DNA of 64,000 bases from Azolla caroliniana (lineage: Eukaryota; Plantae; Polypodiophyta): the NCBI GenBank assembly GCA_043228905.1, contig JBHGNT010000002.1, forward strand, positions 20,708,001-20,772,000, written 5' to 3'. The translations under genes and the position numbers were made by a program. This document shows, in pieces, positions 37,001-61,629 of the stretch; the stretch's first letter is position 1, and each line of letters starts with the position of its first letter. Below the pieces are notes generated by a model. The model saw only the letters and a program-made list of their open reading frames with translations, ran no database searches and was not told the DNA's origin.

Positions 37001-38102
37001 CCCCTTTCTCACTCTACTCTTCAACCGTGCCCTCGCCGAGGGTTTTCCACCACAATGGACCATGAACACAGTGGCCCCTATACATAAAGGAGGGGACCCA
37101 ATGGACCCAAATACATATAGGACCATTATGATAGGTCATATGCTCGCTAAACTATATGTTGCGGTAATGGAAGCAGAGCTCAGCGATTATATGGAAACAT
37201 TAAGTCTTCGAGCACCTGAGCAAGCTAGCTTTAGACGAGCCTTCTCCACTATTGACCATATCTTCACACTTAGGTGCTTAATTGACCAGACGAAGGCTCG
37301 TAAGAAGAAACTATATTGTTGCTTTGTGGACTTCCGCAAAGCCTTTGACACAATTCCTAGGGAGAAGTTGTTTGATAGACTTAAGAAATTGGAGATACCA
37401 AATGACATGATCTGGGCCATTTATGCCCTATATGAGCAAGTCTCTGGGTGCTAAGATGCCCAGATGCCATATACAATTGTTTCACTAGCACCATTGGTGT
37501 AATACAGTGTTGCCCCCTATCACTGACTCTTTTTGGGATCTACATTGATGAGATCACTGATTTTATTGCTCGTAAGGGAGGCAAGAGAGTAACTATTGGG
37601 GATACGCAAGATAGTCTCTTATTCTACGCAGGCGACATTGTCTTGCTCTCATAGTCAGAGCACGACCTACAAAAGCATCTTAATGCCCTAGATGACTTTT
37701 GTACGCAATGAGGACTGGTAGTGAATCTAGCGAAAATTAAAGTCCTTATCTTTCATACATCGTCCCGAGTTAGGAGTAAATGTCACCTAATCCTCTCTCA
37801 TAAACTAGTTGAGGTAGTTGGATCATATGTATACTTCGGAGTCACTTTTAGTGCTCGCTCAGGTAAATGCTCGATGACCTAGGCAACCAAAGATAGGCTA
37901 ACGAGAGGGTCTGCATCCCTCTCACTCTTAGAGTCTAGACAATACCACCAGGCATACTTTCAATAGCCACGTACTAAAAGATGGCTCTTCGACTCATTAG
38001 TAACCCCTTCCCTCATGTATGCATCAGTAGTATGGGCCCTAGGTCTACAATCTTTTATGTGGACGTAATTAGAGAGACCTTTGGTGACGATGTTATCACA
38101 TC

Positions 38103-38672
38103 AAACACACACGGTTTACGTGGATCGTCATCGGCTTCCATCCAGTTTTAACATTGGAGATCGGGTATGGCTACTTCGACGACACATCAAGACTACTCGC
38201 CCATGCCAAAAGTTGGATTATCGGCGATTAGGTCCTTTCCGTATTATTGGAAAGATTAATGATGTCGCTTTTCGTCTCGATCTACCTCCACATATTCGGA
38301 TGCATCCGATGTTTCATAGTTCTCTCCTCAAACCCTATCAAGACAACTCCATCCCAAGTCGTATTAAACAACCTCCACCCCCAATCGAACTTGAAGATGG
38401 ACCTGATTACGAGGTTGCCGCCACCCTCGATTCCAAGATTGTTCGCAACAAGCTCTACTATTTAGTCGATTGGCCAGGATATAGTCCAAATGAGCGTACG
38501 TGGGAACCAATAGATTGGCCAGGATATAGTCCAAATGAGCGTACGTGGGAACCAATAGAGAATGTGACCAATGCTCGTGCTCTTCTTGAAGACTTCCATC
38601 GTCAATATCCAGAAAAACCGGGTCCTCAATCCAAAACGACTCATGACACCCGTCATTTTAAAGGGAAGATAG
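38103..38672 (+). mobile_element. Extra 3' segment of a chromovirus (IN C-terminus, chromodomain, PPT) lying upstream of the first LTR
   Basis: ORF 38081-38683 (GDRVWL, GPFRI, HPMFH, YYLVDW.GY...TWEP) is near-identical to 42970-43492. Confidence 0.9.
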
Positions 38673-41600
38673 TGTCATCTTGATATGGCAAGACTCGAAC
38701 CCATGACCTTGTGTTACATGGGTCGAGCTCTTGACCATTAAACTATATGTAGTAATACAAAAGATATTATTTTCATTTAAGTTTTACTATAGAAAATTGA
38801 TGTATATTCCAAATTTCTCTGGAACATTCTAGAAACTTCAAGAGTACTCCTGAGAACACTATAAAAGGAGGCACAAGGCATTATTTCGAACCAAATCAGT
38901 TCAACGCCGGACTTAAGCCTGATAGCTACTATTGTATATTCTCTTAACACAATATATATCTTTTGTTATCATCATTCTCTCTCTCTCTCTCTCTCACTCA
39001 CTCATTCTTTCCTTCTCTCGAGAGTTCTACACCTGCCTTAGTACTAATCCTCATCTTTTAGTACTAATTCCTTCTCTATCTTAGTATTGTTCGTGACAAT
39101 ACTTCTTTGTCTTAGTACTGCTCCTAACAGTTTGAACCAATTTTTTCCCGTCTCCTTTCTTCTCTTCCTTTATCTTCTTACTTCTCCGTCCCTTCATACT
39201 AATCTCTTATTCCTCTTTTCTCTCATACTATGGCCATTGTTAGCGCTCAAGAATATCAATCCGTTTTTTCGGAGTTGCAATGCTTGAAAGAGAAGTTTCT
39301 CCCATTGGAACAAGAAAATCAACAATTGTTGGGGGAGCTTCAACAAATCTCCTTAGAGAAGCAGCAGACACAAGAACAACATGGGGAACTAGCGTTACGC
39401 ATGCAATAGCTCGAAGCAACCATAATAGCAATGCAACAACAAGGACCCAGTACGCAAGGGGTTCATAAAGAACCCAAGATCGGCCTTCCAATGAAATTCG
39501 ATGAAACGCGATCACAGTTTAGAGGATTCCTTCATCAGGTACGATTAGTCATTAAAATGCATCAATCAAGTTTTGCAATGCTGTTGCCCCTAATACTTCT
39601 GGCAATACTCATGATATCCCAATGATGCATCACGAGTGGGTTTAGTAGGCATGGTGTTAAGTGGCTCAGCTTTGGCATGGTTCGCTCCGTTGTTAGAAAA
39701 GGAATCTCCTTTACTAAACAATTTTGAAGAGTTTTTAAGTGAGTTTAAAGCCTGTTTTGGAGATACTAACAGCATAAGGACAAAAATCAACAAAATCCGA
39801 CGATTACGTCAAGGTGATCGTCCAGCCTCTGCATACGTTGCAGATTTCCGCCTACTCACCTCCAATATCCCCTGGGATGACCAAGCACTTATGGAGCAAT
39901 TTCATTATGGTCTACGTAACGATGTTAAGGATTTAATCTTGACCTTCCCTGAAGAACCAAAGTCATTGACAGAAGCAATAAGTCGTGCGCTGAGATGCGA
40001 CAACCGTCTTTTCGAACGTCAGTTCCAAATGCCAAGGGCAAGATCAGAGCCCACCTATGCCTCAATGGTAGCAAAACCTTTTCCAAGGGAGTCATATAAT
40101 GCGTCTCCAGTGAATACTCCAAATCCGATGGAAATTGACACTACTGTCGTCGTAGACCATTATCAGAAGAAGAAAAGCAGCAACGCCGAGCAGGTACGAC
40201 TATGTCTTTATTGCGGTGGACCAGGGCATATTGCAATGAACTGTCCCCATAGGCCAAGAAGACAGGAGAACCAAATAGTTGCTAATTCCAATAGTCCTGA
40301 CAGTACTAATAGCCCAAATCTATCGAACAAATTTGATGTCCTTAGTCAGTTAGAAGAAGAGTTAAACGACTAAGTCCAGCCAAAATAGGAGCTGTTTGGT
40401 TGGATAGCCCTAGATCTGTGCAACCCATTAGTGGTTCCATTCCCTCTAAGAAAGTTAGCAATGTGTTCTTAGCCCAAGTAACCGTTAGTACTAAAAGTAC
40501 CTCTCCAGTACATGTCTCAACACTCCTAGATTGTGAAGCTAATTCTTGCTTCATGGATAGGAATTTTGCCCAAGCTCATCAGATATCCCTAAGAAAACTC
40601 CCGTGTCCAGCCTCTGTAGTAGTCATTGATGGTCGTCCCATTGCTTCCGGAAATATCATAGAAGAGTCAGAGCCCGTTAATATTGTCCTAGATAATTTAG
40701 CATGTGTAGTATCCTTTAATATAATTAGTATCCCAGAACATCCCATTGTTTTGGGATTACCATGGTTCGAATTACATAACCCAGACATAGATTGGAGAAC
40801 AAGAGAAATCCGGTATCGACAAACCCGAGGATCTACTCATAAGATTGCAACCATTTCGCTACATCAGTTGCGTGAGGAAGGACGCAAGGAAGAAATGTTT
40901 CTCTTCGCAGTATCAGTAAAACCCTCCAACACCACTAAAGAGTCCATCGTTCAACTTCCAGAGAAGTATCGTTATTATTCCGCCTCACTAATGCACCAAC
41001 AATCTTCCAACACATGGCAAATGATATATTCCGAGATCTCTTGGATGTTTGTTTGATTATCTATTTGGATGATCTACTGGTTTATTCGAAGACCCAAGAA
41101 GAGCATGATTCTCATGTACTATTAGTACTAAAATGACTTCGAAGAACATGGTCTTTATGCAAAGCTGGAAAAATGTAGTTTCGAGTGCAATTAGGTAGAA
41201 TTTCTGGGCTATGTCATTTCCTCGGAAAGCATCTCCATGGATCCAGCTAAGGTCAAAACGGTGGTAGAGTGGCAGACTCCAAGTTCGTTGCAAGATATGC
41301 AATGCTTTTTAGGCTTTGCCAATTTCTACCGCAAGTTTATACATGATTGCTCAAAGCTTCTTCTGCCTCTCACACAACTCACCAGGAAGGGACAATCGCT
41401 TGTTTGGTCTAATGAAACAGACATGTCTTTTGAGGGTCTTAAGAAGTCATTTACATCAGCTCCTATTCTGGCTCATGTTGATCTAGAAAAACCATTCATC
41501 ATCGAAGTAGACGTGTTAGATTTCGTGTTGGGTAGCATTCTATCACAACAAGGCGATGATGAAAAGCTCCATCCTTTGGCTTTCCACTCACACAAGTTTG

Positions 41601-43949
41601 ACGCCGCCGAAATCAACTATGAAATTCATGATAAGGAGATATTAGCAATAGTGGACTCTTTTACGCAATGGAGGCATTTTCTAGAGGGATCTTCTCATCA
41701 AGTCACTGTATTTAGTGATCACAAAAACCTTGCCTACTTTCAGAATGCTCGTGTGTTAAATCGACGTCAAGCTCGGGGGGCCCAATTCCTCACTCGTTTC
41801 GACTTCAAAATTACATCTCGTTTGGGGAAGCAACAAGGGAAGGCAGATGCATTATCACGGTGCTCGTATCTAGCATTGCGTCCTGGCGAGCTAGCTTTCA
41901 ATAACCAAAAGTAAGTAATCTTGGGACCAACACGACTGCAAGCAATGCAGTTCTTCGAAATGCCCTTGGATTCCCACATTATCGATACCATACATGAGGA
42001 CTTGAAGACAGATGCTTTCGCCCAAGCCATTCTAGCACAAATTGATCCCTCTCGAGCATCTTGTTCACTGTCGCAACAACCAGGTATGAACTATTGACAA
42101 TTAGAATGTCATGATGGATTACTATTCTTTAAGAAACTCTTGTATGTTCCTAAATTATGGTTCTTGTCACCTTCGAGTAGTCCAAATCTGTCATGACACA
42201 TATACAGTTGGGCATTTTGGTAGTACTAAAACATTAGATTTAGTACAAGGATCATTCTGGTGGCCCCATATGCTACAATTTGTCGAAGGTTTTGTTTGGA
42301 CTTGTGATATATGTTGCAGAGCAAAAATGCCAAGGCATCATCCATGTGGTTTATTAGAACCATTACCAATTCCAGGCAAGCCGTGGCACTCCATTGCTCT
42401 AGATTTCATCATAGATCTTCTGATCTCTAAGGGATTTGATGCGATCGTAACAGTAGTAGATCGATATACGAAGATGGCCCATTTTCTACCATGTACTAAG
42501 GAAATCTCCATTGAGGAAACCGCCGAAACTGTCATGCGTGAAGTATGTCGGCATCATGGCCTCCCCGATAGTATCATCAGCGATCGTGGACCCCAATTCG
42601 TCTCGAAATTCTGGAAGCACCTCTTTAAAATGCTCAAGGTCACTTGTAACCTCTCCTCCGGCTACCACCCACAAATAGACGTCCAAGCAGAACGAACAAA
42701 TCAAATGCTGGAGGGGTATCTTCGGTGCTTTCTAAGCTATCATCAAGATGACTAGGCAGATATTCTCCACTTCGCATAATTTGAGTATAATAACTTTTTC
42801 CACTCATCGACAAAGGTTACACCATTTTATGCTTATATGGGTTGTCACCTCCCGGTGATGTGTATTTGAAACCCCAAAGTTACTCATAAATCCTTGTGCA
42901 GAGGATCGTTTGGAGCGGTTACGCAAGATACAAGCGGATTTATCTACTCATCTATAGCAAGCTCAACAAACAGACAAGGTTTACGCGGATCGTCATCGGC
43001 TTCCATCTAGTTTTAGCATTGGAGATCGGGTATAACTACTTTGACGACACATCAAGATTACTCGCCTATGCCAGAAGTTGGATTATTGGCGATTAGGTCC
43101 TTTCCGTATTATTGGAAAAATTAATGATGTTGCTTTTCGTCTCGATCTACCTCCACATATTCAGATACATCCGGTGTTTCATAGTTCTCTCCTCAAACCC
43201 TATCAAGACAACACCATCCCAAGTTGTATTAAACAACCTCCACCCCCGATCGAACTTGAAGATGGACTTGAGTACAAGGTTGCCACCATCCTCGATCCCA
43301 AGATTGTTCGCAACAGACTCTACTATTTAGTCGATTGGCCAGGATATTGTCCCAATGAGCGTACTTGGGAACCAATAGAGAATGTGACCAATGCTCGTGC
43401 TCTTCTTGAAGACTTCCATCGTCAATATCTAGAAAAACCGGGTCCTCAATCCAAAATGACTCATGACACTCGTCGTTTTAAAGGGGAGATAGTGTCATCT
43501 TGATATGGCAAGACTCGAACCCATGACCTTATGTTACATAGGTTGAGCTCTTGACCATTAGACTATATGTTGTAATACAAAGAATATTATTTTCATTTAA
43601 GTTTTACTATAGAAAATTAATGTATATTCTAGATTTCTCTGGAACATTCTAGAAACTTCAGGAGTACTCCTGAGAACACTATAAAAGGAGGCACAAGGCA
43701 TTATTTCAAACCAAATCAGTTCAACGCCGGACTTAAGCCTGATAGCTACTATTGTATATTCTCTTAACACAATATATATCTTTTGTTATCATCATTCTCT
43801 CTCTCTCTCTCTCTCTCTCACTCATTCTTTCCTTCTCTCGAGAGTTCTACACCTCCCTTAGTACTAATCCTCATCTTTTAGTACTAATTCCTTCTCTGTC
43901 TTAGTATTGTTCGTGATAGTACTTCTTTGTCTTAGTACTGCTCCTGACA
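38673..43949 (+). mobile_element. Ty3/gypsy chromovirus (Tcn1/Tf1-like) element 1, degenerate, RT N-terminus deleted
   Basis: 457-bp LTRs at 38673-39129 and 43493-43949. gag with [14 protein letters not shown], protease (LLDCEANSCFMD), RT/RNaseH, IN and chromodomain. PPT AAAGGGGAGATAG. No tRNA PBS. Confidence 0.95.
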
Positions 43950-45384
43950 TCGACTCACTCATTCTTTCCTTCTCTCGAGAGTTCTACACCTCCCTTAGTA
44001 CTAATCCTCATCTTTTAGTACTAATTCCTTCTCTGTCTTAATACTGTTCCTGACAGTACTTTTTTGTCTTAGTACTACTCCTAACATCGACAGTACCACA
44101 TGACATTATTAGAGCAAAGTTTAGTCTGCCCCCGATGTTAGTAGAAGCACTATTTTAAGTGGTAGTTTTTATTCATCAGATACATAGCCAACCACAAGAT
44201 AGGATATCATGTCGAGCCTTTGAGGCATCTCGATCCCTAGATGCATCTGGAGACACTAGCTCTTGGTATAGCACTGTGGTGAGTTGGTTACTTGCTAACG
44301 GCATAGACATTAATAACCTACCCCCCCTTAAGTACAACAATGGGACTGACCAAACTCTAATATCTCATGAAGACCGTAATAAAGTGATACGCCAAGAAAT
44401 ATGGCAAATTTACACTCGATATAAATGGATCACCCCACGAGAGCCACTCCCATCTAAAATGTTGTACTATAAGGAACACTTCTTGCACTTCTCTCAGTTA
44501 GTTTTATTACACAACCAAGATATCTAGATACATTCTTATCAAATGCACTAAGGGTGGCCATTGGACAACTTAGGATATCATCTCACCAACTTGAGATTGA
44601 GAATGGTCGGGCTAATAGAGTCCCTAGGGAGGAAAGGCTATGTAGGTTTTGCCACATAGAGATAGAGGATGAGTATCACTTCACATGCAAGTGCCCAACT
44701 TATGCTGAGATACGAGTGGCATACCAAGACATATTAGGACCCTGTCCCACCCTCTTCAAACTATTAGATACCCTGGATGTAAAGAGACTAGGTAGGTATA
44801 TCTTAGAGCTAAAACAACATAGGGAGAACCCTAAATTATAAAGTATTAACCATAACCCTTTTACTATTCATCAACTTGTAACTAGTGTAATTTTTCAGGA
44901 ACAAGGGGAGACGATGAATGTGGATACACTTATGCCGCTTGGCCTCTCTCTTGAGGAAGCCGAAACGCAAAGAACAACCAAACGCCCTCGGATGTTGGGC
45001 TTCAAAATAAGTCGACACAGAGTAGAAAGGATTAAGACGATAAGGGAACGTGAGCTACGTCGACTAGAAGCTTTGGTTGGGGTACCTTTTACATTGGGGC
45101 AACGAGCCACATCCACATCGAAACCCTTTGATCTCCCACTTCTCTTCGAGAGACTTGGATGGAAATGAAATTAGGCCTAGTATAACATCATTTTCATTGT
45201 AGAACATGTTTGTTATTTTATTTTACTAGAACTATTTAGCTTAAAACTCTATTTTTATTTTTATCTTTTACTTTCGATGAATGGGTAAATATCCCATTTT
45301 TTGTTGTAAACCATTTGTCTCATGGGCCAATTTTGGTCTTAGAAGACGTTAATATATCTTTCTTTCTTTCTCTCTCTCTTTTTG

Positions 45385-48328: not shown

Positions 48329-51300
48329 TGTTACGAATCCACGCTCCGATTCACCTTCACCGTTCGGCCACAACCGAGAAATCACGAATCAATGCAGCAG
48401 AAAATAGGAAACACAGAGAAAGACACGATAACACAGGGATTAACGTGGAAAACCCTATACGGGAAAAACCACGGGAGTGCAAGACTCCAAACCAAAACTA
48501 TGCACAGAGAAATATACAATGGCGAGCTGCAAGGCGACGACCTTGAGCTCGCTGTCCTCGCCACAGGCGGCGGTATTACACAGAGGCGTCGACCTCTTCC
48601 TCTCTCACGCTCTATCTCTCTCACGGCTGCTCTCTCTTCACTCCTCTAGAGTGGAAAAACAGAAAAATGAGTAGCAACATAAAACTGTTTGCCCTAAGTC
48701 ATATTTATACACATATGACTTTAGGGCTATTTACAAATATAGCCTCCAGGGCCCTTGGCAAAACATATTCACAAATATGTCCCCGCATCCGGATCTCTCT
48801 CCGGGTACATTCATCATCCGGCTCCGTAGCCGGGTCTTCATCATCCGGCTCCGTAGCCGGGGTCTTCATCATCCGGCTCCGTAGCCGGGGTCTACATCAT
48901 CCGACTCCGTAGCCGGGTACTCTTCATCCGGCTTCATGCCGGGTACTCTTCATCCTCCGGTTCCGTAACCGCAACCGGGCTTGCCGTCATTCATCTCCGG
49001 ACATCCCATCCGGAGGGACCGAAAATCCCAACAAACTCCCCCTTCACTTCGGCATGGGATGTCTCTCCAATCCGATCCTCTTCCGGCATGCTTCCAGCTT
49101 GTCGGGTGTGAGCACCTTGGTCAGCATATCCGACCCGTTCTCGTCCGTGTGGATCTTCGTCAGCACGAACTCCTTGTCTTCTATCCTTTCTCGGATCCAG
49201 TGGTATCTACGCTGGATGTGTTTCGTCCGGGAATGGTAGGCCGCGTTCTTCGCAAGGTGGATGGCACTCTGACTATCGCAGTAGAGCCGGTACTCCTCCT
49301 GCCGGATACCGAGCTCTCTAATGAATTCCTTCATCCATATTATTTCCTTGCCGGCTTCAACAGCCGCCATGTACTCCGCCTCCGTGGTTGACAACGCAAC
49401 CGTCTTCTGCAGCCTCGACTGCCACGAAACAGCTCCCCCTGCATACGTCATCACATACCCGGATGTGGACCGGCTGGTATCCGCATCAGCCGACATGTCC
49501 GAATCGGTAAATCCATCGAGTTCGGGCTTACCGGAGCCGAATCGGAGGCACATGTTCGAAGTGCCCTTTAGGTATCGGAGTATCCATTTGACCGCGTTCC
49601 AGTGCTCTTTGCCGGGATTGCTCATGTACCGGTTCACCACTCCGACTGCATATCCTATGTCCGGTCGGGTACACACCATTGCGTACATCAAGCTCCCGAC
49701 GGCAGAGGCATATGGTACTTTCATCATGACCTCCTTCTCAGCCTTTGTCTTGGGGCTTTGCTTCCTGGACAGCTTGCAGTTTGCCGGGAGTGTTGACCCG
49801 ACCGGTCTTGCTTCCGACATGTTGAACCGGTGAAGCACCTTTGTCACGTACTTCTCCTGTGACAACCACAACTGCTTCTTCTTCCGGTCCCGGATGATGT
49901 GCATCCCTAGTATTTGCCTCGCCGGACCCAGGTCCTTCATTGAGAAGGTTCGGTGAAGAGCCTTCTTCAACATCCGTATCTTGACCTGGTCTCGTCCGAC
50001 GATCAACATGTCGTCCACGTACAGGAGGAGTATTAGAAAGTCTCCTCCTTCGAACTTCTTCACAAACACGCAGTGATCGGTCTGCGTTTTGTGGTACCCT
50101 TCGTCTGTCATGAAGGAGTCGAACTTCCGGTACCATTGCCGGGGAGCCTGCTTCAGACCGTAGAGGCTCTTCTTCAACCGGCATACCAGGTGCTCCTTTC
50201 CTTTCTTCTCGAATCCTTCCGGTTGCTGCATGTAGATCTCTTCTTCGAGGTCACCGTGAAGGAATGCCATCTTCACGTCCATCTGTTCTACCTCGAGGTC
50301 CATGCTTGCCGCTATGCTCAGCACCGTCCGGATGGAGGTCATCTTCACTACCGGGGCAAATATCTCGTCGAAGTCGACGCCCTTCTTCTGCTGGAACCCC
50401 TTCACCACGATCTTGGCTTTGTATCTCGGGGGGTTTCCGGCATCTCCCGGTTTCAGCTTGAACACCCACTTGTTTAGAAGTGCCCGCTTTCCTTTCGGCA
50501 ACTCCACAAGTTCATATGTGTGGTTCTCATGCAGGGAATCCATCTCCTCCTGCATGGCACTTAACCACCTGCGGCTATGTGTGTCAAGCTCTGCTTCTTC
50601 AAAACTCTCCGGCTCCCCCTCGTCGGTTAGCAGCACGTGCTCTGGTTCCGGAAATCTCCGGGGGGCCCTTCTCTCTCTTAGAGGATATCTCCGTTCCGGG
50701 GCTTCGGTAACCGGCTCCTCCATTTCCTCTTCATCCGAATCCATTTCGGGATCGGGGCCGGTTTCGGTATCAGTTTCATCTTCCTCGGCCGGTTCTGTTT
50801 CTTCACCGTCTTCGGCCGGATCCTCGAGTGCTAACCGGTCCCTTGCCGGTCGGGACTGCTCTTCGTAGAGTTGATTCTCACCGGTCGACTTTGAGCTCTT
50901 CATCTTCTTCTCCGACTCCCAGTCGGCGAGTGTCTTGTCCTCCATGAAGATGATATCACGACTCCTGAATATCTTCTTGTCGACCGGGTCCCATACTCGG
51001 TAGCCGAACTCGTCGTTGCCGTAACCGAGGAATATGCATGGCCGGGTCTTTGGATCTAGCTTTCCTCTCCGGTCCTTTGCCACATGCACATATGCGAGAC
51101 ACCCGAACACCTTCAGATGCCGGTAGGATACTTCCCTACCGGTCCACACTCTCTGCGGCGTGTCTCCGTCCAAAGGTACTGAGGGTGATCTGTTTATCAC
51201 GTATGTCGCCGTCGACATTGCCTCAGCCCAAAACCCCTTGGGTAATTTCGCATGCGCCAGCATACTCCGGACCCTCTCCATTATGGTCCGGTTCATCCTC

Positions 51301-53852
51301 TCGGCCAGCCCGTTCAGTTCCGGCGTCTTCGGCACAGTAAACTCGAGCCGGATTCCCTTCGAGCGACAGTACTCCTCGAACTGCACCCGGTATTCCCCTC
51401 CGTTATCCGCTCGTATCGCTTTCAGCTCCTTGCCGGATTCCCTTTCCACTCTCGCGTGGAGTTCTTTGAAGACGGACAATACTTGGTCCTTTGTCTTCAA
51501 CGGTGCCGTCCACAGCTTCCGGCTGTGATCATCTATGAATGTTACGAAGTACTGGGCTCCGCCATGTGACTTCGTTTCTACCTGACACACATCAGTGTGC
51601 ACCAACTCCAATGGTGCGCTACGTCTCGTCGGTGGCCTTGAGTGGAAGGAGGCTCGGTTCTGCTTACCGGCCAGGCAATCAGTGCACTTCTCCAGATGCA
51701 CATGCTTCACTGGGATAAGGTTGTCTTCTGCAAGCCTCTTCATCCCCTTCTCACTCATGTGGCACAGTCTCTTGTGCCACAGCTCACCGGCAGTGTCGGC
51801 TGCCACGTTCAACTCTTCCGGACACAACCGGGCATTCATAAGGTACAGTGTGTTGACTTTCCGGGCCCGAGCCACTATCAGGCTCCCTTTGCTGAACTTC
51901 ATGACACTGTTCCGGATGCTACCCGTGTAGCCTTCATCGTCTAGCCTCCCGGCCGAAATCAGGTTCAATCGAACCTCCGGAACGTGTCGAACATCCTTAA
52001 GCAGCATTTTGCATCCGGTCGAGGTTGTCAACCACACGTCTCCTATGCCGGCAATCCGGCACGTACCTTCCTTTCCCATCCGGACACAGCCGTGCTCACC
52101 GGCTGTGTATGATGAGAAGTATTTCTTCTCGGGGGTCAGGTGGAACGACGCTCCGGAATCGACCACCCAGGTCATCTCTACATCGGCAAGATTTAGCTCC
52201 CTTTCTTCGGTAATGAGCATTATCTCTTCTTCACTTGCCGCGAGTGCCGTCGTTCCTTTCCGGTCCTGCCCTCGCCGATCCGGACCTCTCCGGTCCGTGG
52301 ATCCCCGGTATGCACCGTTTCGCTCCGGTGACTTCTTCGAATCGGTGTCGTCGGCTCCGTTGTCTTTTCGGTAATGCCGACAATTCTTCCGGAAGTGCCC
52401 CGGCTTCCCACAGTGGAAGCATGTGGGTCTTCCTCTTGACTGCGACCGGGTCCCCGACTTCTCTCGTCTTTGCGGACTCCGGTTCCATTGTCTTCCCCGA
52501 TCCGATTCGGTAAGCAGCGCCTTCGGGTCGGAGGCCGGTTCTTTATCTCTCCGACGCGCTTCTTCGTTCAAAATACTTGTCTTTACCGTTTGTAGAGACA
52601 AGTTATCTTCGGTGCAGGAGGTGCTGAGAGTCACCACCAAGTTCTCCCAGCTTTCCGGCAATGTACACATCAGAATGATGGCTTGCATTGCATCCTCCAA
52701 CGGGAACTTGATCGCCGCAAGCTGGTTCACGAATCCCATGAACGTGCTCACGTGTTCCACCATACTCTCGCCGTCCCGGTACTTGAGGTTCACTATCTTC
52801 CTCATCAGGGAGGTCCGGTTCAACGCATTCTTCCTCTCGTAGAGGCCCGACAGCTTCCGCCACATCTCATATGCGTTGGTGTCGTTCGCCACATGTTGTA
52901 GAACGCTCACGTCGACGTATTGCCGAATGGTTGCAACGGCTTTCCGGTTCAGAAGCCTCCATTCCGTCTCAAGTAGCCCCTTCGGTATTTCCGACCTGTC
53001 AATCGGTTCGTACAGGTCCCGAACAATCAGAAGATCCTCCATCTTGATCTTCCAATCGGCGTAGTTCTGCGCATTCAGCACCATCATCCCCGGCTGCCCG
53101 CTGCTGCCGCCTTCCATTTTCCGCACTGCCGTCGCTCTGATACCACTTGTTACGAATCCACGCTCCGATTCACCTTCACCATTCGGCCACAACCGAGAAA
53201 TCACGAATCAATGCAGCAGAAAATAGGAAACACAGAGAAAGACACGATAACACAGGGATTAACGTGGAAAACCCTATACGGGAAAAACCACGGGAGTGCA
53301 AGACTCCAAACCAAAACTATGCACAGAGAAATATACAATGGCGAGCTGCAAGGCGACGACCTTGAGCTCGCTGTCCTCGCCATAGGCAGCGGTATTACAC
53401 AGAGGCGTCGACCTCTTCCTCTCTCACGCTCTATCTCTCTCACGGCTGCTCTCTCTTCACTCCTCTAGAGTGGAAAAACAGAAAAATGAGTAGCAACATA
53501 AAACTGTTTGCCCTAAGTCATATTTATACACATATGACTTTAGGGCTATTTACAAATATAGCCTCCAGGGCCCTTGGCAAAACATATTCACAAATATGTC
53601 CCCGCATCCGGATCTCTCTCCGGGTACATTCATCATCCGGCTCCGTAGCCGGGTCTTCATCATCCGGCTCCGTAGCCGGGGTCTTCATCATCCGGCTCCG
53701 TAACCGGGGTCTACATCATCCGACTCCGTAGCCGAGTACTCTTCATCCGGCTTCATGCTGGGTACTCTTCATCCTCCGGTTCCGTAACCGCAACCGGGCT
53801 TGCCGTCATTCATCTCCGGACATCCCATCCGGAGGGACCGAAAATCCCAACA
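48329..53852 (-). mobile_element. Intact Ty1/copia (Tork/Tnt1-like) element C
   Basis: 705-bp LTRs (48329-49033, 53148-53852) differing at ~6 sites, TSD CATCG, Meti PBS at 53134-53145, PPT AGGGGGAGTT. Confidence 0.98.
49044..53117 (-). CDS. Copia gag-pol polyprotein (gag, CCHC, protease, integrase, RT, RNaseH), 1357 aa, uninterrupted
   Basis: Single ORF with CFHCGKPGHFRKNC, WVVDSGAS, HTDVC...IRADNGGEY...NGLAER, QMDVK, LYVDDM and FTDSD. The first ATG after the PBS is at 53117. Confidence 0.95.
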   Translation of the reverse strand: MEGGSSGQPGMMVLNAQNYADWKIKMEDLLIVRDLYEPIDRSEIPKGLLETEWRLLNRKAVATIRQYVDVSVLQHVANDTNAYEMWRKLSGLYERKNALNRTSLMRKIVNLKYRDGESMVEHVSTFMGFVNQLAAIKFPLEDAMQAIILMCTLPESWENLVVTLSTSCTEDNLSLQTVKTSILNEEARRRDKEPASDPKALLTESDRGRQWNRSPQRREKSGTRSQSRGRPTCFHCGKPGHFRKNCRHYRKDNGADDTDSKKSPERNGAYRGSTDRRGPDRRGQDRKGTTALAASEEEIMLITEERELNLADVEMTWVVDSGASFHLTPEKKYFSSYTAGEHGCVRMGKEGTCRIAGIGDVWLTTSTGCKMLLKDVRHVPEVRLNLISAGRLDDEGYTGSIRNSVMKFSKGSLIVARARKVNTLYLMNARLCPEELNVAADTAGELWHKRLCHMSEKGMKRLAEDNLIPVKHVHLEKCTDCLAGKQNRASFHSRPPTRRSAPLELVHTDVCQVETKSHGGAQYFVTFIDDHSRKLWTAPLKTKDQVLSVFKELHARVERESGKELKAIRADNGGEYRVQFEEYCRSKGIRLEFTVPKTPELNGLAERMNRTIMERVRSMLAHAKLPKGFWAEAMSTATYVINRSPSVPLDGDTPQRVWTGREVSYRHLKVFGCLAYVHVAKDRRGKLDPKTRPCIFLGYGNDEFGYRVWDPVDKKIFRSRDIIFMEDKTLADWESEKKMKSSKSTGENQLYEEQSRPARDRLALEDPAEDGEETEPAEEDETDTETGPDPEMDSDEEEMEEPVTEAPERRYPLRERRAPRRFPEPEHVLLTDEGEPESFEEAELDTHSRRWLSAMQEEMDSLHENHTYELVELPKGKRALLNKWVFKLKPGDAGNPPRYKAKIVVKGFQQKKGVDFDEIFAPVVKMTSIRTVLSIAASMDLEVEQMDVKMAFLHGDLEEEIYMQQPEGFEKKGKEHLVCRLKKSLYGLKQAPRQWYRKFDSFMTDEGYHKTQTDHCVFVKKFEGGDFLILLLYVDDMLIVGRDQVKIRMLKKALHRTFSMKDLGPARQILGMHIIRDRKKKQLWLSQEKYVTKVLHRFNMSEARPVGSTLPANCKLSRKQSPKTKAEKEVMMKVPYASAVGSLMYAMVCTRPDIGYAVGVVNRYMSNPGKEHWNAVKWILRYLKGTSNMCLRFGSGKPELDGFTDSDMSADADTSRSTSGYVMTYAGGAVSWQSRLQKTVALSTTEAEYMAAVEAGKEIIWMKEFIRELGIRQEEYRLYCDSQSAIHLAKNAAYHSRTKHIQRRYHWIRERIEDKEFVLTKIHTDENGSDMLTKVLTPDKLEACRKRIGLERHPMPK

Positions 53853-55929
53853 CATCGAGATTCAAGAAAGGAAGACAACGTGGTCAAAGTTTGAAAGAGC
53901 AATATTATCGGAGTTTGCGATGGAAGATTTGTCGTGGATGACTCGACATGTCTTGATGAAGTGGATAGAAAAGAAAAATAAGAAGATGAGCGCCTCAATG
54001 GTATACGACGAGTTCAACCAGATGTTTAGTCGTCTCCCTGCCACGGACCAAGTGCTGCTTGAGGAGGACAAGACTTTGTACTTCCTAAAAGTTTTGGATA
54101 TGAAGGATAGACGAGAATTGGGGACTCTCCTCGAAGATGATACCCAAGTGAATGGGCTTGTGGAAGACTGGGTTGCGGTGAAGAGAGCATGCAACAAGAT
54201 CGATAGGCGTCATGAATGGCTTGAAGATATTGACTTGGTAAGGTCAAACATAGAAAAAACAAGACCATCTAAAGAAGTCGAGTTGCCTAAACAAAGCAAC
54301 CTACATGAAAAGAAGATTGATGATGACTCGAGGACAGAGAAGGCCACTTCGAGGGAGGATGAATGTTTCGGAACATGCGTCGTGTTCGAAACATCGGATG
54401 ATGAAGGAGCAAGCTTAATCGAAGCTTGCATCAAGGGAGATAAAGAGTGTGAGGTCGACATGATGGAGGATCTAGCCACTAAAATCGACATCAAGGAGGT
54501 GGCTATGAAAGGAACAACAAGTGTCGGCAATGACCACGGCCAAATTTTCTCCGCACTTGTTCCAAAGACTTGGGCAATTGCATCCAAGAACCAACGTGAG
54601 ACCCAAGAGACGGAAGGTGTCGGCGAGGAGCCGAAGGTCAAAACTAATACATGAGACGAAGAGGGAAGCATAATCGAGGCTTGCTCGATCAAGAGGGTTA
54701 ATGGGTACGAGTTCCATGAGTCTATAGAGGTAGCCACGAAAGAAGCCATCGAGTCGGAGGTGGCTATGGACGAGTCAATGGAGAATGACCATGTTGAGAC
54801 TTTCCCGCCACTAACTCTAGAGACTTTGGCAGTTGCGTTCGAAAGGTAACATGAGACCGAAGAGACGGAAGGTGGCAGAGAGAAAACAAAGGTCAAAGTC
54901 GATGCATATGACGAAGAGATAGCCGAGAAGGTGGCTATGGGCGAAACGACGGAGGATGGTAATACCAATGATTCTTGCCCACTAATTCTAGAGACTTCAA
55001 CGGTTGTGTCCAAGAACCAATGTGAGACTAGAGAGACGGGAGGTGGCAGCAAGGAACGTAGAGCCGGAAGTGAGTTCGAACAGAAGATGATCCGGCCGGA
55101 ATTCCGGCCTAAACAAAAACCAAACCAAGTGGAAGTGGATTTGGCCGAAATCTGATCGGTTAAGCCCGACCCGGATGGAAATCGTTCCAGCCGGAAGCCG
55201 ATCAGACGAGACCAATCCGAAAAGAAGCTAATTCGACTCAACCGGAGGTCGAACCGGTCGAGGCCAGTAAACACGAGGAAATGGAAGCGAACCTGGACCG
55301 AAATCAATCGATCGAACCCGACCCGACCCGAAAGGGGGCCAACTCGGTTGAAACCAATCAGCCAAGTCCAATTCAGTCGAATACAAATCCGAATGGCAAC
55401 TGATTCAACCGAAAGTCGATCGGACGAGACTGATCTGGAAAGAAGTCAAGGTTGATGAAGACAAGGAAGAGGCCAAGCAAGCACACTACCATGGACAATA
55501 AGGGCCAAATGAGCCAAGCAGATTTGAAGGGTGTTACCGAGGATGAGATCTCGACTAAGGAGGGCTCTTACATGAAGATCATCAACTCTAACGCGAGATT
55601 GTACGTGTCAGGAATAGTACTAAGCAGAGATGGAATTAGTACTAAAGAAGAGCAGTACTATTAGTACTAAGAGGACGGGACTGCGTAAGACTCCCGAGAG
55701 AGAGAGAGGATGATAACAGCCAATATATTATGTGAAGGATACTTAGTACAAAATGGCTAATAGGCTTAAGACTGGCGTTGAACCAATTTGGTTCAAAACA
55801 ATGCCTTGTGCCTCCTTTTATAGTGTTTTTAGGAATAATCCTGAAGCTTCTAGAATGTTCCAGAGAGATCTGGAATATACATCAATTTTCTATGATAAAA
55901 CATAAATGAAAATAATATCCTACAAATTA

Positions 55930-56000
55930 CAATTCATAGTCTAATGGTAAGAGCTCGACCCATGTAGCATAAGGTCATGAGTTCAAGTCTTGCCATATCA
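55930..56000 (+). ncRNA. tRNA-like Pol III A/B-box module at the LTR U3 tip (copies also at 61105-61175 +, 38680-38750 -, 43500-43570 -, 47525-47590 -)
   Basis: A-box TAGTCTAATGG (55937) and B-box GAGTTCAAGTC (55979) at tRNA-like spacing, with partial D, anticodon and T stems. Confidence 0.55.
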
Positions 56001-56912
56001 TGACACTATCTCCCCCTTAAAGACGACAAGTGGAACGAGTCGGCGCTAATTGCGGACCGGGTTTGTCCGGATACTTTCGGTGGAAATCAGCAAGAAGATC
56101 CTGTGCATTGGCAACATGCTCGACGGGTTCCCAAGTACGTTCGCTCGGACTATAACCGAGCCAATCGACCAAGTAATAAAGTTTGTTGCGAACAAGTTTG
56201 GAATCGAGGATGGCAGCAACTTCATACTCCGGGCCGACGTCCAACTCCAGCGGGGGCGGCGGTGGTGTCACACGATCGGGAATGGTGTTTGCTTTATAAG
56301 GTTCAAGAAGAGAACAATGGAAAACCGGATGTATCTGAAGCTGTGGAGGGAGATCAAGGCGGAATGTGCCATCATTAATCTTACCCATAATACGGAAGGG
56401 ACCGAGTCGTCGATAATCCAACTTGTCGCACGGTCGAGTAGTCTTGATTTGACGACGTAAGAGCCATACTCGATCTCCGATGGCAAAAGAGGAAGGAATC
56501 TGATGACGATCCGCATAAGTCTTCTGTGTGTGTTGAGCATGACGAAGGTGAGTAGAGAGATCCATCTGGATCTTGCGTAGCCTCTCCAAATGATCCTTGG
56601 CACGAGGATTGGTAGGTAGCTCCGGGGTGTCGATCACCGACCAACGAGGATGGAAAAACCGGTATAAGCGAAAAATGGGGAGACCCGAGTCGAGGAGTGA
56701 ATAACATTATTATATACAAACTCCGCAAAGTGGAGAAGCTCGGCCCAATCGTCCTATTGATAACTCAGGAAACACCGGAGATATTGCTCCAGCGTTTGGT
56801 TTGTTCGTTCCGCCTGCCCGTCGGTCTGAGGATGGTAGCCGGAGGAGAGATTGCAGGAGACCTTGAGCATCTTGAAGAGATGCTGCCAAAATTTGGAGAA
56901 AAATTGCGGTCC

Positions 56913-59072
56913 TCAGTCACTGATGATACTGTCTGGGAGGCCATGATGCCGAAATACCTCACGCATAACAAGGGTGGCGGTTTCCTCGCTAGTGATGGCT
57001 TTAGTACAAGGCACAAAATGTGCCATCTTCGTATATCGATCGACAACGGTTAGGATAGCATCGAACCCCTTCGAGACCGGCAGATCTGTGATAAAATCAA
57101 GACAAATAGACTGCCACGGCTTACTTGGAATCGGTAAGGGTTCCAACAAGCCATATGGATGGTGTCGTGGCATCTTTGCTCGGTAGCAAGCATCACAAGT
57201 CCGAACGTAGTCGTCGACAAAACGGCGCATGTGGGGCCACCAAAAAGATCGTTGCACTAGCTCCAACGTCTTAGTACTACCGAAATGTCCCTCCGTATGG
57301 GTGTCGTGACAATGTTGGACAATTTGAAGGCGACAGGAGCAATCGGGGACATATACGCGCTTTTTAAAGAATAACAAACCATCATGATATTCGAATTGTC
57401 GGTAGTCAATACCTGGTTGTTGAGACCAAGAACAGGATGCTCGAGAAGTATCAATGTGCGCCAAGATGTCTTGAGCAAAACTATCCGTCTTCAAGGTTGC
57501 ACGTATGTCATCGGTAATCCGTGAATCCATCGAGGTGTGAAAAATCCGCGTTGTGTGCAATCGTGTTGGTCCCAAGATTACTTGCTTTTGATTATCAAAT
57601 GTTGCATCACCAAGACGAGGTGCAAGATATGAACGTCGTGATAGTGCATCTGCTTTTCCTTGCTGCTTCCCCGGTCGATATGTGATTTTGAAGTCGAAAC
57701 GCGTGAGGAATTGCGCCCACTGAGCTTGCCGTCGATTTAGTACGCGAGCGTTCTGAAAATAAGCAAGATTTTTATGATCGCTAAAGACAATGACCTGATG
57801 TGGAGAGCCCTCTAAGAAATGCCGCCATTGTACAAATGAATCCACGATGGCTAATAACTCCTTGTCATGTATTTCGTAGTTGATTTCTGCGACATCGAAT
57901 TTGCGCGAATGGAAAGCCACCGGATGCAACTCTTCTTTATCTCCTTGTTGAGAAAGGATGCTACCGAGGGCAAAATCTGATGCGTCGGCCTCCATGATGA
58001 ATGGTTTTCTTGTATCCACATGAGCTAGAATCGGTGCTGATGTAAAGGCTTTCTTAAGATGCCGAAAAGCCATATCTGCTTCTATGGACCAAAGAAATGC
58101 TTGGCCCTTCTTCGTAAGTTGTGTGAGAGGTAAAATAATCTTTGAGTAATCCTGTATAAACTTACGGTAGAAGTTAGCAAAACCTAGAAAACATTGTACA
58201 TCTCGTACCGACCGTGGAATTTGCCACTCTAGTACAGTTTGGATTTTAGCTGGATCCATGGCGATGCCCTTTGAGGAGATGACGTAGCCTAGAAATTCCA
58301 CTTGCTTGCAGTCAAAGCTACATTTTTCTAGCTTGGCATAAAGACCATTCTCGCGGAGTAGCTTTACTACTAATAGTACATGAGAATCGTGCTCTTCCTG
58401 GTCTTCCTGGGTCTTCGAATAAATCAATAGATCATCCAGATAAATGATCAAACAGATATCCAAGAGGTCTCTGAATATATCATTTGCCATGTGTTGGAAG
58501 ACTGCGGGTGCATTGGTTAGGCCAAACGGCATAACAGTATACTCGAAATGCCCATACCGCGTGCAAAAGGCGGTCTTCCATTCATCTCCCGGTCGGATCC
58601 ACACGAGGTTATACGCTCCTCGTAGGTCGATTTTAGTAAAAAACTTGGCACCATTAACTTGCTCTAAAAGACTTGATATAAGAGGAAGTGCATGCCTATT
58701 CCGGATGGTGACTTTATTCAATCCGTGGTAATCAACAACAAGACGAAGTGAGCCATCTTTCTTCTTGACAAAGAAGATGGGTGCACTGCCTGGAGATTTC
58801 GAATGATGGATGAACCCGCTTGCCAAGTTCTCCTCTATGTAGGCTCGAAGGACTTCTAACTCGATGGGTGACAAGTTGTAAACTGGTCCCCATGGTGGCT
58901 CGGTTCCTAGTTGTAAATCGATGGGACAGTCATAGGGACGGTGATGAGGAAGGGTACCGGCTTTTACCTTGTCAAATACATCGGCATAAGGATGATATTT
59001 TGCTGGAAGTTGTACTGAGGAGTCCTTCTTAATAGTGCTGGAAGGATGTACTGATATTGGAAATAGGAACAT
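56913..59072 (-). pseudogene. Chromovirus pol segment (RT, RNaseH, integrase N-part)
   Basis: KIDLRGAYN, MPFGLTNAP, YLDDLLIY, EADASD, HDKELLAI, H-H-C-C integrase zinc finger, LDFIT. Confidence 0.9.
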
Positions 59073-61629
59073 TGCCTCCTTGGGTCCTTCTTCGCGTAGT
59101 TGATGGAGTGAAATGGTCGAAACTCGGTGAGTTGATTCTTGGGGTGGTCGATATCGGACTTCTCTTGTTCTCCAATTTATGGCGGATTATGTAATTCAAA
59201 CCAAGGTATTCCTAGGACAATGGGATGCTCTGGACTACTAATTATATTAAATGATATTACACACACAAAACTACCTAGGACAACTTGAATGGGTTCTGAT
59301 TTTTCTACAATATGCCCGGAAGCAATGGGACGACCATCAATGACTACTACAGATGCGGGACAAGGAAGTTTTCTTAAGGATATCTGAGAAGCTTGGGCAA
59401 AATTTCGATCCATGAAACAGGAATTAGCTCCGGAATCTAAAAGTGCTAGGACGGGTACTGGGGGAGTACTTTTAGTACTAACAATGACTTGGGCTAGGAA
59501 CACATTGCTAACTTGCTTGGAAGGAATGGAACCACTAATGGGTTGTACAGATCTAGGGCTGCTGTCCAACCAAACGGCTCCTATTTTGGTTGGACTCAAT
59601 TGTTTAACTCTTCATCTAATTGACTAAGGATTTCAAATTTATTTGAGATACTTGGGCTATTAGTACTATGAATACTATCAAACACTCTATTAGTACTATT
59701 AATACTATCAAACACTCCTAAGGGAAGAATTGACTCGGGTTTAGTACAAGCTACAATTTGATTTACCCGTCTTCTTGGCCTATGGGGACAATTGATTGCG
59801 ATATGCCCTGGTCCACCGCAATAAAGACATAATCGATTTGCACGTCGTCGTTGCTTTTCTTCTTCCGATAACGGGCCACGTCAACGCATGGTATCGATCT
59901 CCATCGGTGTCGAAGTATTTGCTTGAGGTATGTCTTGTGCAAACGGTTTAGCCGCGACTGCGGCGTAAGTGGGCTCCGGCCTAGCGCGTGGTATCTGTAA
60001 TTGACGTTCCGAACGCCATTCGAAAAGGCGGTTGTCACATCGGACCGCTCGACTGATTGCCTCTGTAAGAGACTTTGGTTCTTCGGGGAAAGTTAGAAGT
60101 AGATCTTTGACACCGTTTCGCTCCATTAGTGCTTGATCATCCCAGGGTATGTCTGAAGTGAGTAGGCGGAAATCCGCCGCGTAGGCAGAGGCTGGACGAT
60201 CGCCTTGACGCAATCGCCGGATCTTGTTGATTGTCGTCCTGATGCTGTCGATGTCTCCAAAGCAGGCTTTGAACTCACTAATAAAATCTTCAAAGTTATT
60301 AAGCAAGGGCCATTGTTTTTCTAGAAGCGGAGCGAACCATGCTAAGGTTGAGCCGCTAAGCAATGTGCCTATTAAGCCGACTCGGGATGCATCAGTGGGG
60401 TATCGGGAAGGATGCATTTGGAGGACTAATCGTACCTGATTAAGGAATCCCCTGAATTGCGATCGCGTTCCATCAAATTTCACAGGAAGTCCAATCTTCG
60501 GCTCTTTATGAAATCCCTGGGGACTTGATCCTTGTTGTTGCAATGCCGCTTCGAGTTGTTGCACCCGTAACGCTAACTCCCCATGTTGTTGTTGCGTTTG
60601 TTGCTTTTCTAGAGCGATTTGTTGCAGATCCCCTATCAGCCATTGGTTTTCTTGTTCCAAGGCAACAAATTTTTCTTTTAAGCATTGTAGCTCGGAGAAA
60701 ATGGATTGATATTCTTGGGCGCTAACAGTAGCCATAGTATAGGGAAAAGGGTAGGAGGGAAAATTGGTTCAAACTGTCAGGAATAGTACTAAGCAGAGAT
60801 GGAATTAGTACTAAAGAAGAGCAGTACTATTAGTACTAAGAGGACGGGACTGCGTAAGACTCCCGAGAGAGAGAGAGAGAGAGAGAGAGGATGATAACAG
60901 CCAATATATTATGTGAAGGATAAGTACAAAATGGCTAAGAGGCTTAAGACTGGCGTTGAACCAATTTGGTTCAAAACAATGCCTTGTGCCTCCTTTTATA
61001 GTGTTTTTAGGAATAATCCTGAAGCTTCTAGAATGTTCCAGAGAGATCTGGAATATACATCAATTTTCTATGATAAAGCATGAAAATAATATCCTACAAA
61101 TTACAATTCATAGTCTAATGGTAAGAGCTCGACCCATGTAGCATAAGGTCATGAGTTCAAGTCTTGCCATATCATGACAGTACGACAAAGGTGGATGAAG
61201 TGCGGAGTGCCTTGACCAAGGAGATGGTTGGAATGAAGGTGGAACATGCATAAAGCCTAGATGGTTATGCTCAGAAGCAGACCAAGGGGACATGACAACT
61301 GGTCATGGTAAAGCAAAGAATGAGTGAATGATATGGTGGATTGGGTGGCGACAATGGTTCGAGTGAAGGGAATGGACATGCTTGGGAAAGTCTCGACACG
61401 GTCATCCGTTGTGGACTCTTCCATAGCCATTTGTGACTCGATGTCGTAAGGATAATCGCAATGGCAAAGCTTACTTCCATATTCCTCATGGTCGTGATCA
61501 TGCTCACCGCGTGTACCGCGGCCAATGCTAGGTCTGTAGGGCGGGACCGTGAAGAGGAGCGACAAGATCGACGTAGTGAGGGAGACATTGAAGAAGTAGA
61601 GACGCCTAAACAAAGCCACCACTTAATTA

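What the first reader, a model, noticed from the sequence alone, without database searches (positions are those of the whole stretch)
55930..56005. Outward-facing tRNA-like Pol III cassette at the U3 tip of chromovirus LTRs
Seen: all four chromovirus LTRs (38673, 43493, 55606-56005, 60775-61179) carry, within ~70 nt of the U3 terminus and antisense to the element, TAGTYTAATGGT(C)AAGAGCTC-GACC...GGTC-ATGRGTTCRAGTCTTGCC. This is an A-box and a B-box ~43 nt apart (44-45 in tRNAs). It has D-like (GTCT/AGAG), anticodon-like (GACC/GGTC) and weak T-like stems, behind an AT- and CAA-rich leader. The module is well conserved between elements 1 and 2, whereas their U5 regions diverge. Known: Cassandra TRIMs carry 5S-derived Pol III promoters in their LTRs, and TFIIIC-bound B-boxes can act as chromatin barriers. 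Inference: an autonomous gypsy lineage may have captured a tRNA-type Pol III unit. It could make antisense RNA across the PPT/integrase end, or act as an insulator against silencing. I do not know a published description, but could not search.
Basis: partly seen in the sequence, partly recalled or inferred. Interest (0 to 1): 0.85.

Follow-up and report, generated by a model that had tools for sequence, protein, structure and literature searches.

The report
Retrotransposon carries outward tRNA-type promoter
A group of self-copying retrotransposons in what is probably a moss carries, at the outer tip of its terminal repeats and facing outward, the two promoter boxes of a tRNA gene without the tRNA fold; these likely bind the host's tRNA-gene transcription factor and may help shield the element's own promoter from silencing, which is untested.

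Summary
All four LTRs carry an antisense A box and B box 43-44 nt apart at the U3 tip. The elements are autonomous Tcn1-like chromoviruses with a self-priming site, in a moss-like host. Sampled by chromodomain or polypurine tract, 24 of 44 LTR types carry the unit, in two integrase clades whose U3 regions otherwise differ widely. G53, T55, C56 and A58 are fixed in 21 of 21 compared families while position 57 switches between A and G, the tolerance expected of a TFIIIC site. The cloverleaf is lost: the 'anticodon stem' is really the variable loop, part of the extended B box, and no terminator is conserved. A different hairpin forms in some families. The unit is dispensable: one family spread with A58G and several relatives lack it. 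There are no expression or occupancy data. Best reading: a selected, DNA-level tRNA-type Pol III promoter, likely acting as barrier or open-chromatin aid for the Pol II promoter about 110 nt inward. It differs from Helenus and Cassandra TRIMs (non-autonomous; Helenus examples seen are sense). Ten literature searches found no description.

The parts
55606..56005 (-). 3' LTR of element 2 (U3 tip at 56005)
   Evidence: TG...CA ends, target-site duplication GTACG at 55601-55605 and 61180-61184; 2 substitutions in 393 aligned bases against the 5' LTR
55930..55997 (+). tRNA-derived unit, antisense to the element, pointing out through the U3 tip; forms a non-cloverleaf hairpin
   Evidence: hairpin z -3.1 (this strand) and -3.9 (element strand)
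55937..55947 (+). A box (T8, A14, G18, G19)
   Evidence: T8 and A14 each in 20 of 21 families
55974..55989 (+). extended B box GTC-nnnn-GTTCRA-n-YC; this copy has A52 and A57 in both LTRs
   Evidence: motif as given in PMC3159450; G53, T55, C56, A58 in 21 of 21 families
56006..56020 (-). polypurine tract next to the U3 tip
   Evidence: sequence
55811..55822 (-). TATA box of the inferred Pol II promoter, 107 nt inward of the unit
   Evidence: the TATA-region pattern matches 3,294 places against 0 for the control
55778..55789 (-). inferred self-primer (first bases of the element RNA), complementary to the primer site
   Evidence: starts 33 nt after the TATA start
60761..60772 (-). primer-binding site, complementary to the LTR's own R region
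56017..56706 (-). integrase end with SH3 and chromodomain
   Evidence: PF24626 E 9.9e-18, PF00385 E 9.8e-14
56913..59186 (-). RT, RNase H, integrase zinc finger
59881..60768 (-). gag
   Evidence: PF03732, PF19259
60775..61179 (-). 5' LTR of element 2
61104..61171 (+). same unit in the 5' LTR (A box 61111-61121, B box 61154-61163), pointing into flanking DNA
38684..38752 (-). unit in the LTR at 38673, shared by two tandem elements (A box 38735-38745, B box 38692-38701)
   Evidence: score 31.3; hairpin z about -6 on both strands
43504..43572 (-). unit in the 3' LTR of element 1 (A box 43555-43565, B box 43512-43521)
   Evidence: score 30.0

Best explanation
The LTRs of these autonomous chromoviruses carry an antisense, outward-facing pair of tRNA promoter boxes that is conserved across diverged families while the tRNA fold is lost, and it likely works as DNA, binding TFIIIC and loading the Pol III machinery between the flanking chromatin and the element's Pol II promoter, where it would act as a barrier or open-chromatin aid. 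Shown: position, orientation, spacing, conservation pattern, loss of the cloverleaf, absence of a fixed terminator. Inferred: purifying selection on the boxes and TFIIIC recognition (about 0.7). Inferred, weaker: barrier or promoter aid as the benefit (about 0.4 overall), useful to an element whose chromodomain is expected to steer it into heterochromatin. Origin: probably one old capture of a tRNA gene or SINE head into U3, copied to both LTRs by reverse transcription, with later losses.
For: Sampling by chromodomain or polypurine tract, not by the motif: 24 of 44 scored LTR types have an antisense A+B unit within 6-53 nt of the tip (shuffle p<0.05); on the sense strand only 1 of 44 reaches 20 bits. 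Two starred integrase clades hold it (14 of 14 and 8 of 9 rows); the other 18 rows do not pass. In 21 module-bearing families G53, T55, C56, A58 are 21/21; T54, C61, T8, A14 are 20/21; position 57 is A 10, G 10, C 1; positions 27-37 reach only 8-14/21. The conserved GTC at 46-48 matches the B-box motif also seen in isolated B boxes (PMC3159450 passages). L145 against 10 copies of its sister family here: fixed differences at 0 of 10 critical sites, 9 of 43 other module sites, 22 of 307 other LTR sites; the two B-box changes are G57A and T60C, both degenerate positions. In 24 LTR pairs, the 10 critical sites show 7 post-insertion differences but 1 inherited allele, against 85 and 75 elsewhere in U3 (Fisher p=0.074); C56: 5 and 0. 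A fission-yeast tDNA barrier needs both the A box and Pol III (PMC2040200 passages), which fits keeping both boxes but no product. RLG1's chromodomain is proposed to target heterochromatin (PMC7466625 passages).
Against: No occupancy or transcript data. The B-box CpG decays in copies like a neighbouring CpG (C56T 7, G57A 3 of 76; the CpG near position 28: 6 and 5), so most copies seem methylated rather than protected. Within the window's clade the boxes are not clearly better kept than upstream U3 (mean majority 0.94 B box, 0.88 A box, 0.91 upstream), and the pair test is not significant. One family here has A58G in 7 of 7 copies printed (of 10 fetched) and a degenerate A box; its relative L148 lacks the unit; L129 has a shortened unit. 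SM-Tcn1 and the first 400 bases of the RLG1 transcript show no unit by eye, so the lineage succeeds without it. The spacing of 43-44 in 18 of 21 families is tighter than TFIIIC is recalled to need. The yeast barrier is orientation-independent, so it does not by itself explain the fixed orientation. I cite no plant evidence for tDNA barriers.
Confidence: 0.45

Rival explanations
1. The product matters: Pol III makes an antisense RNA with a 5' hairpin that runs from the 3' LTR over the polypurine tract and chromodomain region and would limit or tune the element's own RNA.
For: Both boxes kept; orientation fixed; a long hairpin pairs about positions 18-36 with 48-66 (z -3 to -6.6 in window copies; covariation reached by 3 of 500 shuffles). 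Derived tandem arrays of the unit have T runs 25-35 nt after the tip.
Against: First T4 lies 61-344 nt away or beyond 400 nt by family: about 116 nt in element 1, about 1,430 nt in element 2. The hairpin reaches z<-2 on this strand in only 5 of 23 units and there is no consensus fold. A self-limiting RNA is harder to select.
Confidence: 0.17
2. The unit works on the element's own RNA: the U3 sequence next to the polypurine tract would anneal to the D and T arms of a host tRNA, as in the Ty3 bipartite primer site, aiding packaging or strand transfer.
For: Ty3 precedent: T and D arms of the primer tRNA pair in U3 (PMC5371799 passages). tRNA-length spacing in 18 of 21 families; G57A is also tolerated by G-U pairing; 15-nt exact matches to host tRNA-Lys(CUU) and to a tRNA-Ile(UAU) copy in 6 of 23 units.
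Against: The element has a self-priming site, not a tRNA site (PMC6317226 passages). The middle changes faster than the rest of the LTR, A-box positions 10-13 vary freely, 7 of 23 units share at most 10 nt with any fetched tRNA, and no one tRNA is best for all (only 12 tRNA types compared). In the window's clade the stretch is tied up in a hairpin.
Confidence: 0.15
3. An RNA hairpin at the start of U3 in the element RNA is the selected feature (positioning the polypurine tract, packaging), built on an old tRNA relic.
For: Folding is stronger on the element strand (z<-2 in 11 of 23); own arms pair better than swapped arms (p=0.0002 over 22 units; within groups p 0.01-0.39); arms carry fewer inherited alleles than the loop (0.32 against 0.64 per column).
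Against: Box bases stay fixed in families without the hairpin (L145, L146, L261, L143); T8 and A14 lie outside it; the shuffle count is within what related unstructured sequences can give.
Confidence: 0.1
4. A neutral relic of an old SINE or tRNA insertion, carried along by LTR copying.
For: Several lineages lost or broke it; the within-clade tests are not significant.
Against: Only the promoter-critical bases persist across clades about 50% identical in the integrase end, including a CpG cytosine that mutates often in copies.
Confidence: 0.1

Closest known systems
Helenus TRIMs (TRIMp3; Kojima 2024, PMC10886601; main text parts 1-5 of 6 and supplement passages read)
   Same: tRNA-derived sequence in both LTRs, A and B boxes kept, tRNA function mostly lost
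   Different: Helenus is non-coding, 311-1,263 bp, tRNA-primed, and the unit is proposed to make the template RNA; in the supplement entries seen it is in sense, near the U5 end, followed by a T run. Here: 5.6-kb coding element, self-priming site, TATA promoter, unit antisense at the U3 tip. The paper notes that other Repbase LTRs hit tRNAs but analysed only TRIMs under 1 kb.
Cassandra and Ajax TRIMs (as described in PMC10886601; original Cassandra paper not read)
   Same: Pol III promoter captured in an LTR
   Different: 5S-derived, non-autonomous, drives the element's own RNA
Tcn1 clade chromoviruses (PMC2864245, PMC6317226; passages, SM-Tcn1 supplement)
   Same: chromodomain integrase, self-priming site, bryophyte-like host, about 5.6 kb with 400-bp LTRs
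   Different: no Pol III unit in the passages read; SM-Tcn1 and the shown start of RLG1 lack it by eye
Fission-yeast tDNA and B-box barriers (PMC2040200, passages)
   Same: A+B boxes placed at a likely chromatin border
   Different: host loci with intact tRNA genes and tested function; here mobile, no fold, untested
Ty3 bipartite primer site in U3 (PMC5371799, passages)
   Same: U3 sequence complementary to tRNA T and D arms
   Different: Ty3 is tRNA-primed and matches one tRNA; this element is not and matches none consistently

Membership tests
Tcn1-clade chromovirus | gypsy domain order with C-terminal chromodomain | tested here: met
Tcn1-clade chromovirus | self-priming site instead of a tRNA primer site | tested here: met
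   12-nt complement of the R region right after the 5' LTR; priming itself not tested
Tcn1-clade chromovirus | groups with named Tcn1 references in an RT/integrase tree | not tested
   the tree held unnamed loci only
Tcn1-clade chromovirus | moss or club-moss host | tested here: inconclusive
   5.8S rRNA judged moss-like from recall, no named comparison
Helenus / TRIMp3 | tRNA-like sequence with A and B boxes in the LTRs | tested here: met
Helenus / TRIMp3 | short, non-coding TRIM | tested here: not met
   5,574-bp element with gag and pol
Helenus / TRIMp3 | Pol III unit oriented to make the template RNA | tested here: not met
   unit is antisense; a TATA promoter faces the sense direction
Helenus / TRIMp3 | tRNA primer site | tested here: not met
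   primer site matches the element's own R region
tRNA gene | cloverleaf with covarying stems | tested here: not met
type-2 Pol III promoter | A box and B box at tRNA-like spacing | tested here: met
   43-44 nt in 18 of 21 families; 42-45 in short-arm host tRNAs
type-2 Pol III promoter | TFIIIC binding and Pol III transcription | not testable with these tools
   no RNA holder listed
SINE insertion | tail, own target-site duplication, presence in only some copies | tested here: not met
   73 of 76 LTRs carry it; no tail seen between B box and tip; a free SINE family was not searched for exhaustively
chromatin barrier | blocks spread of silencing in a reporter | not testable with these tools
   needs experiment

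The most novel reading that the evidence does not exclude
An autonomous, heterochromatin-seeking retrotransposon lineage domesticated a tRNA promoter as its own portable chromatin barrier: a back-to-back Pol III/Pol II LTR that recruits TFIIIC/TFIIIB at the integration border, scattering thousands of mobile tDNA-type insulators through a moss genome.
Probability: 0.3. Interest if true: 0.85.

Novelty: new variant of a known kind. Interest (0 to 1): 0.62.

Why it matters
The Pol III-bearing LTR elements in the papers read are tiny non-autonomous TRIMs proposed to use Pol III to copy themselves, and Kojima argues that their autonomous partners must use Pol II. Here a coding element keeps a Pol III-type unit that cannot make its template, so it must serve something else. 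If it is a barrier, it would explain how an element that lands in heterochromatin stays expressed and would give a compact test of tDNA insulators in plants. About 2,400 LTRs of the window's clade alone would hold both cores intact (56 of 76 scaled to 3,294; an estimate), a large pool of possible TFIIIC sites.

Tried and rejected
Functional tRNA: rejected. Primer role of the unit: the primer site is explained by self-priming. Targeting of Pol III genes as in Ty3 or TRE5: 0 of 38 U3-side and 0 of 62 U5-side host flanks score 20 or more. Donor tRNA: not resolved among 12 fetched types; Lys, Ile and Arg score alike. Single clade of carriers: rejected by AU test, p=0.0065, 23 rows against 13, 5 rows left out, group named after seeing the first tree; one gain with losses, two gains or LTR exchange all remain. 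Expression: no RNA holder listed; contigs of three runs were laid but cannot show strand or level. Spread to other hosts: L145 has 86-90% relatives in this genome, so the metagenome loci may come from close kin and do not show wide host range. Viral contigs gave one distant locus, not examined. Earlier findings were not open. Dropped rows: 42 loci with a chromodomain end but no recognised polypurine tract, 1 short representative, 3 short proteins, 2 of 26 LTR pairs, 3 of 10 loci without my anchor. The large element tables of PMC6317226 could not be read and may hold Tcn1 LTRs that bear on distribution; supplement cells of PMC7466625 were cut at 400 characters.

Full report
Observation. The window holds a 5,574-bp gypsy element on the minus strand (55606-61179, target-site duplication GTACG, LTRs differing by 2 substitutions in 393 bases) and a tandem pair on the plus strand. 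Pfam finds gag, RT, RNase H, integrase, SH3 and chromodomain. Each of the four LTRs has an A box and a B box 43-44 nt apart, antisense, with the B box 16-19 nt from the U3 tip. With a matrix trained on 28 host tRNA entries the four score 23.7-31.3; the 99th percentile of the best score in 100 shuffled windows is 24.4. A pattern for the element-2 type matches 388 places in the 523-Mb genome and its reversed control none.

The element. After the 5' LTR lies a 12-nt complement of the sequence that begins 33 nt after the LTR's TATA box: a self-priming arrangement, reported for most Tcn1 elements of mosses and club-mosses (PMC6317226 passages). The host 5.8S rRNA looks moss-like (recalled, not tested). 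The unit therefore cannot be the primer or the promoter of the element's RNA.

Anatomy. Together with the B box it matches GTCnnnnGTTCRAnYC, a motif also found in isolated B boxes (PMC3159450 passages). Cloverleaf pairing over 21 families is 32 of 105 (anticodon), 59 of 142 (acceptor), 56 of 84 (D) and 51 of 84 (T), against 56/60, 83/84, 42/48 and 48/48 in 12 host tRNA types; covariation equals shuffles (232 of 500; structure mapped by hand on the alignment). ARAGORN and Rfam see no tRNA in the window or in 10 loci. A different hairpin, pairing about 18-36 with 48-66, is strong in the window's clade (z -3.1 to -6.6, both strands) and in part of the second clade, absent elsewhere (z<-2 in 5 of 23 on the Pol III strand, 11 of 23 on the element strand), with modest covariation (3 of 500) and no consensus fold. 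The first T4 downstream lies at 61-344 nt or beyond 400; about 116 nt for element 1 and 1,430 nt for element 2.

Distribution. LTR tips were collected by chromodomain or polypurine tract from this genome and from metagenome contigs: 140 distinct junctions, 42 loci dropped for lack of a recognised tract. Of 44 scored types 24 carry the unit within 6-53 nt of the tip. On an integrase-end tree of 41 rows it fills one starred clade (14 of 14) and 8 of 9 rows of another, and no other row passes. One clade is rejected (p=0.0065). Shared leader and variable-loop words between the clades and the homologous but broken unit in relatives of L148 favour one gain with losses; this is inference. Of 76 LTRs sampled by a TATA pattern (from the first 100 of 3,294 places, one per element), 73 have a recognisable unit and 56 both cores intact.

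Selection. Among 21 carrier families (chosen as carriers, so box conservation is partly built in; the variable loop was not in the matrix) G53, T55, C56, A58 are invariant and 57 is A or G. Between L145 and its sister family, 0 of 10 critical sites, 9 of 43 other unit sites and 22 of 307 other LTR sites are fixed differences. In 24 LTR pairs critical sites have 7 post-insertion differences and 1 inherited allele, other U3 sites 85 and 75 (p=0.074). Against: within the window's clade upstream U3 is about as well kept as the boxes; the B-box CpG decays in copies like another CpG; a family has A58G in 7 of 7 printed copies; L148 lacks the unit; SM-Tcn1 and the shown start of RLG1 lack it by eye. 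The unit is selected in many lineages but dispensable.

Mechanism. Both boxes are kept, the fold, the middle and the transcript length are not: this points to protein recognition of DNA. In the 5' LTR the unit sits between host DNA and a TATA promoter (105-109 nt away in the window's clade, about 100-300 nt in other families where one was found), facing out, so that TFIIIB would load on the promoter side (established Pol III geometry, PMC2040200 passages). A fission-yeast tDNA barrier needs the A box and Pol III (same paper). Chromodomain elements are proposed to target heterochromatin (PMC7466625 passages). I commit to a barrier or open-chromatin aid at 0.45; antisense RNA 0.17, tRNA annealing in U3 as in Ty3 0.15, RNA hairpin 0.10, relic 0.10. 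No step after the sequence pattern was tested; no RNA data were available.

Known and new. Closest are the Helenus, Cassandra and Ajax TRIMs (PMC10886601, parts 1-5 of 6 and supplement passages). This element fails their defining features (short, non-coding, tRNA-primed, unit making the template). That paper says other Repbase LTRs resemble tRNAs but did not analyse them, so tRNA-like LTR pieces as such are not unprecedented. Ten searches of the held library listed no description of an antisense A/B unit in autonomous chromovirus LTRs; most subscription papers and Repbase notes are outside that library. PMC13570524 (passages) cites only Cassandra and Helenus/Ajax. Verdict: real, new variant of a known kind, function open; interest 0.62.

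Noticed in passing
L383-L387, L389, L397, L399-L401 (e.g. L384 895-2304); variants L388, L398: A dispersed non-coding repeat holds tandem copies (about 200-340 nt period) of only the last 100 nt of this LTR's U3, including the unit and the tip, mostly followed by T runs about 25-35 nt later; L384 and L399 are bounded by about 440-nt inverted repeats and also hold a piece of U5. It could be a short Pol III transcription array derived from the LTR.
   Followed up: partly
window 55778-55800 and 60761-60772: The self-primer region is a palindrome whose halves each resemble a B box core; in the second clade the primer differs, so this may be chance.
   Followed up: partly
window 47586-47525, minus strand: Another A+B-like stretch (score 24.3) outside the chromovirus LTRs, possibly a SINE relic; a further hit (23.9) at 55364, minus strand.
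   Followed up: no
L390, L391, L392, L394, L395: Single tRNA-derived A+B stretches with no hit to this LTR or pol, some followed by CT-rich tails; SINE-like.
   Followed up: no
SM-Tcn1 supplement of PMC2864245, bases 405-418 and 498-511: By eye the sequence after the 5' LTR complements the LTR's R region, a self-priming site that the paper reported as not found.
   Followed up: no
window 38099-44091: Two chromovirus elements in tandem share the LTR at 38673-39129; the last LTR has a duplicated U5 piece.
   Followed up: partly
L031, L032, L038, L039, L048, L049: Host tRNA-Lys(UUU), tRNA-Ile(UAU) and tRNA-Arg(UCU) genes lie in tandem clusters with many variant copies.
   Followed up: no
window 49044-53207: An uninterrupted 1,387-aa copia frame with LTRs 99% alike.
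   Followed up: no
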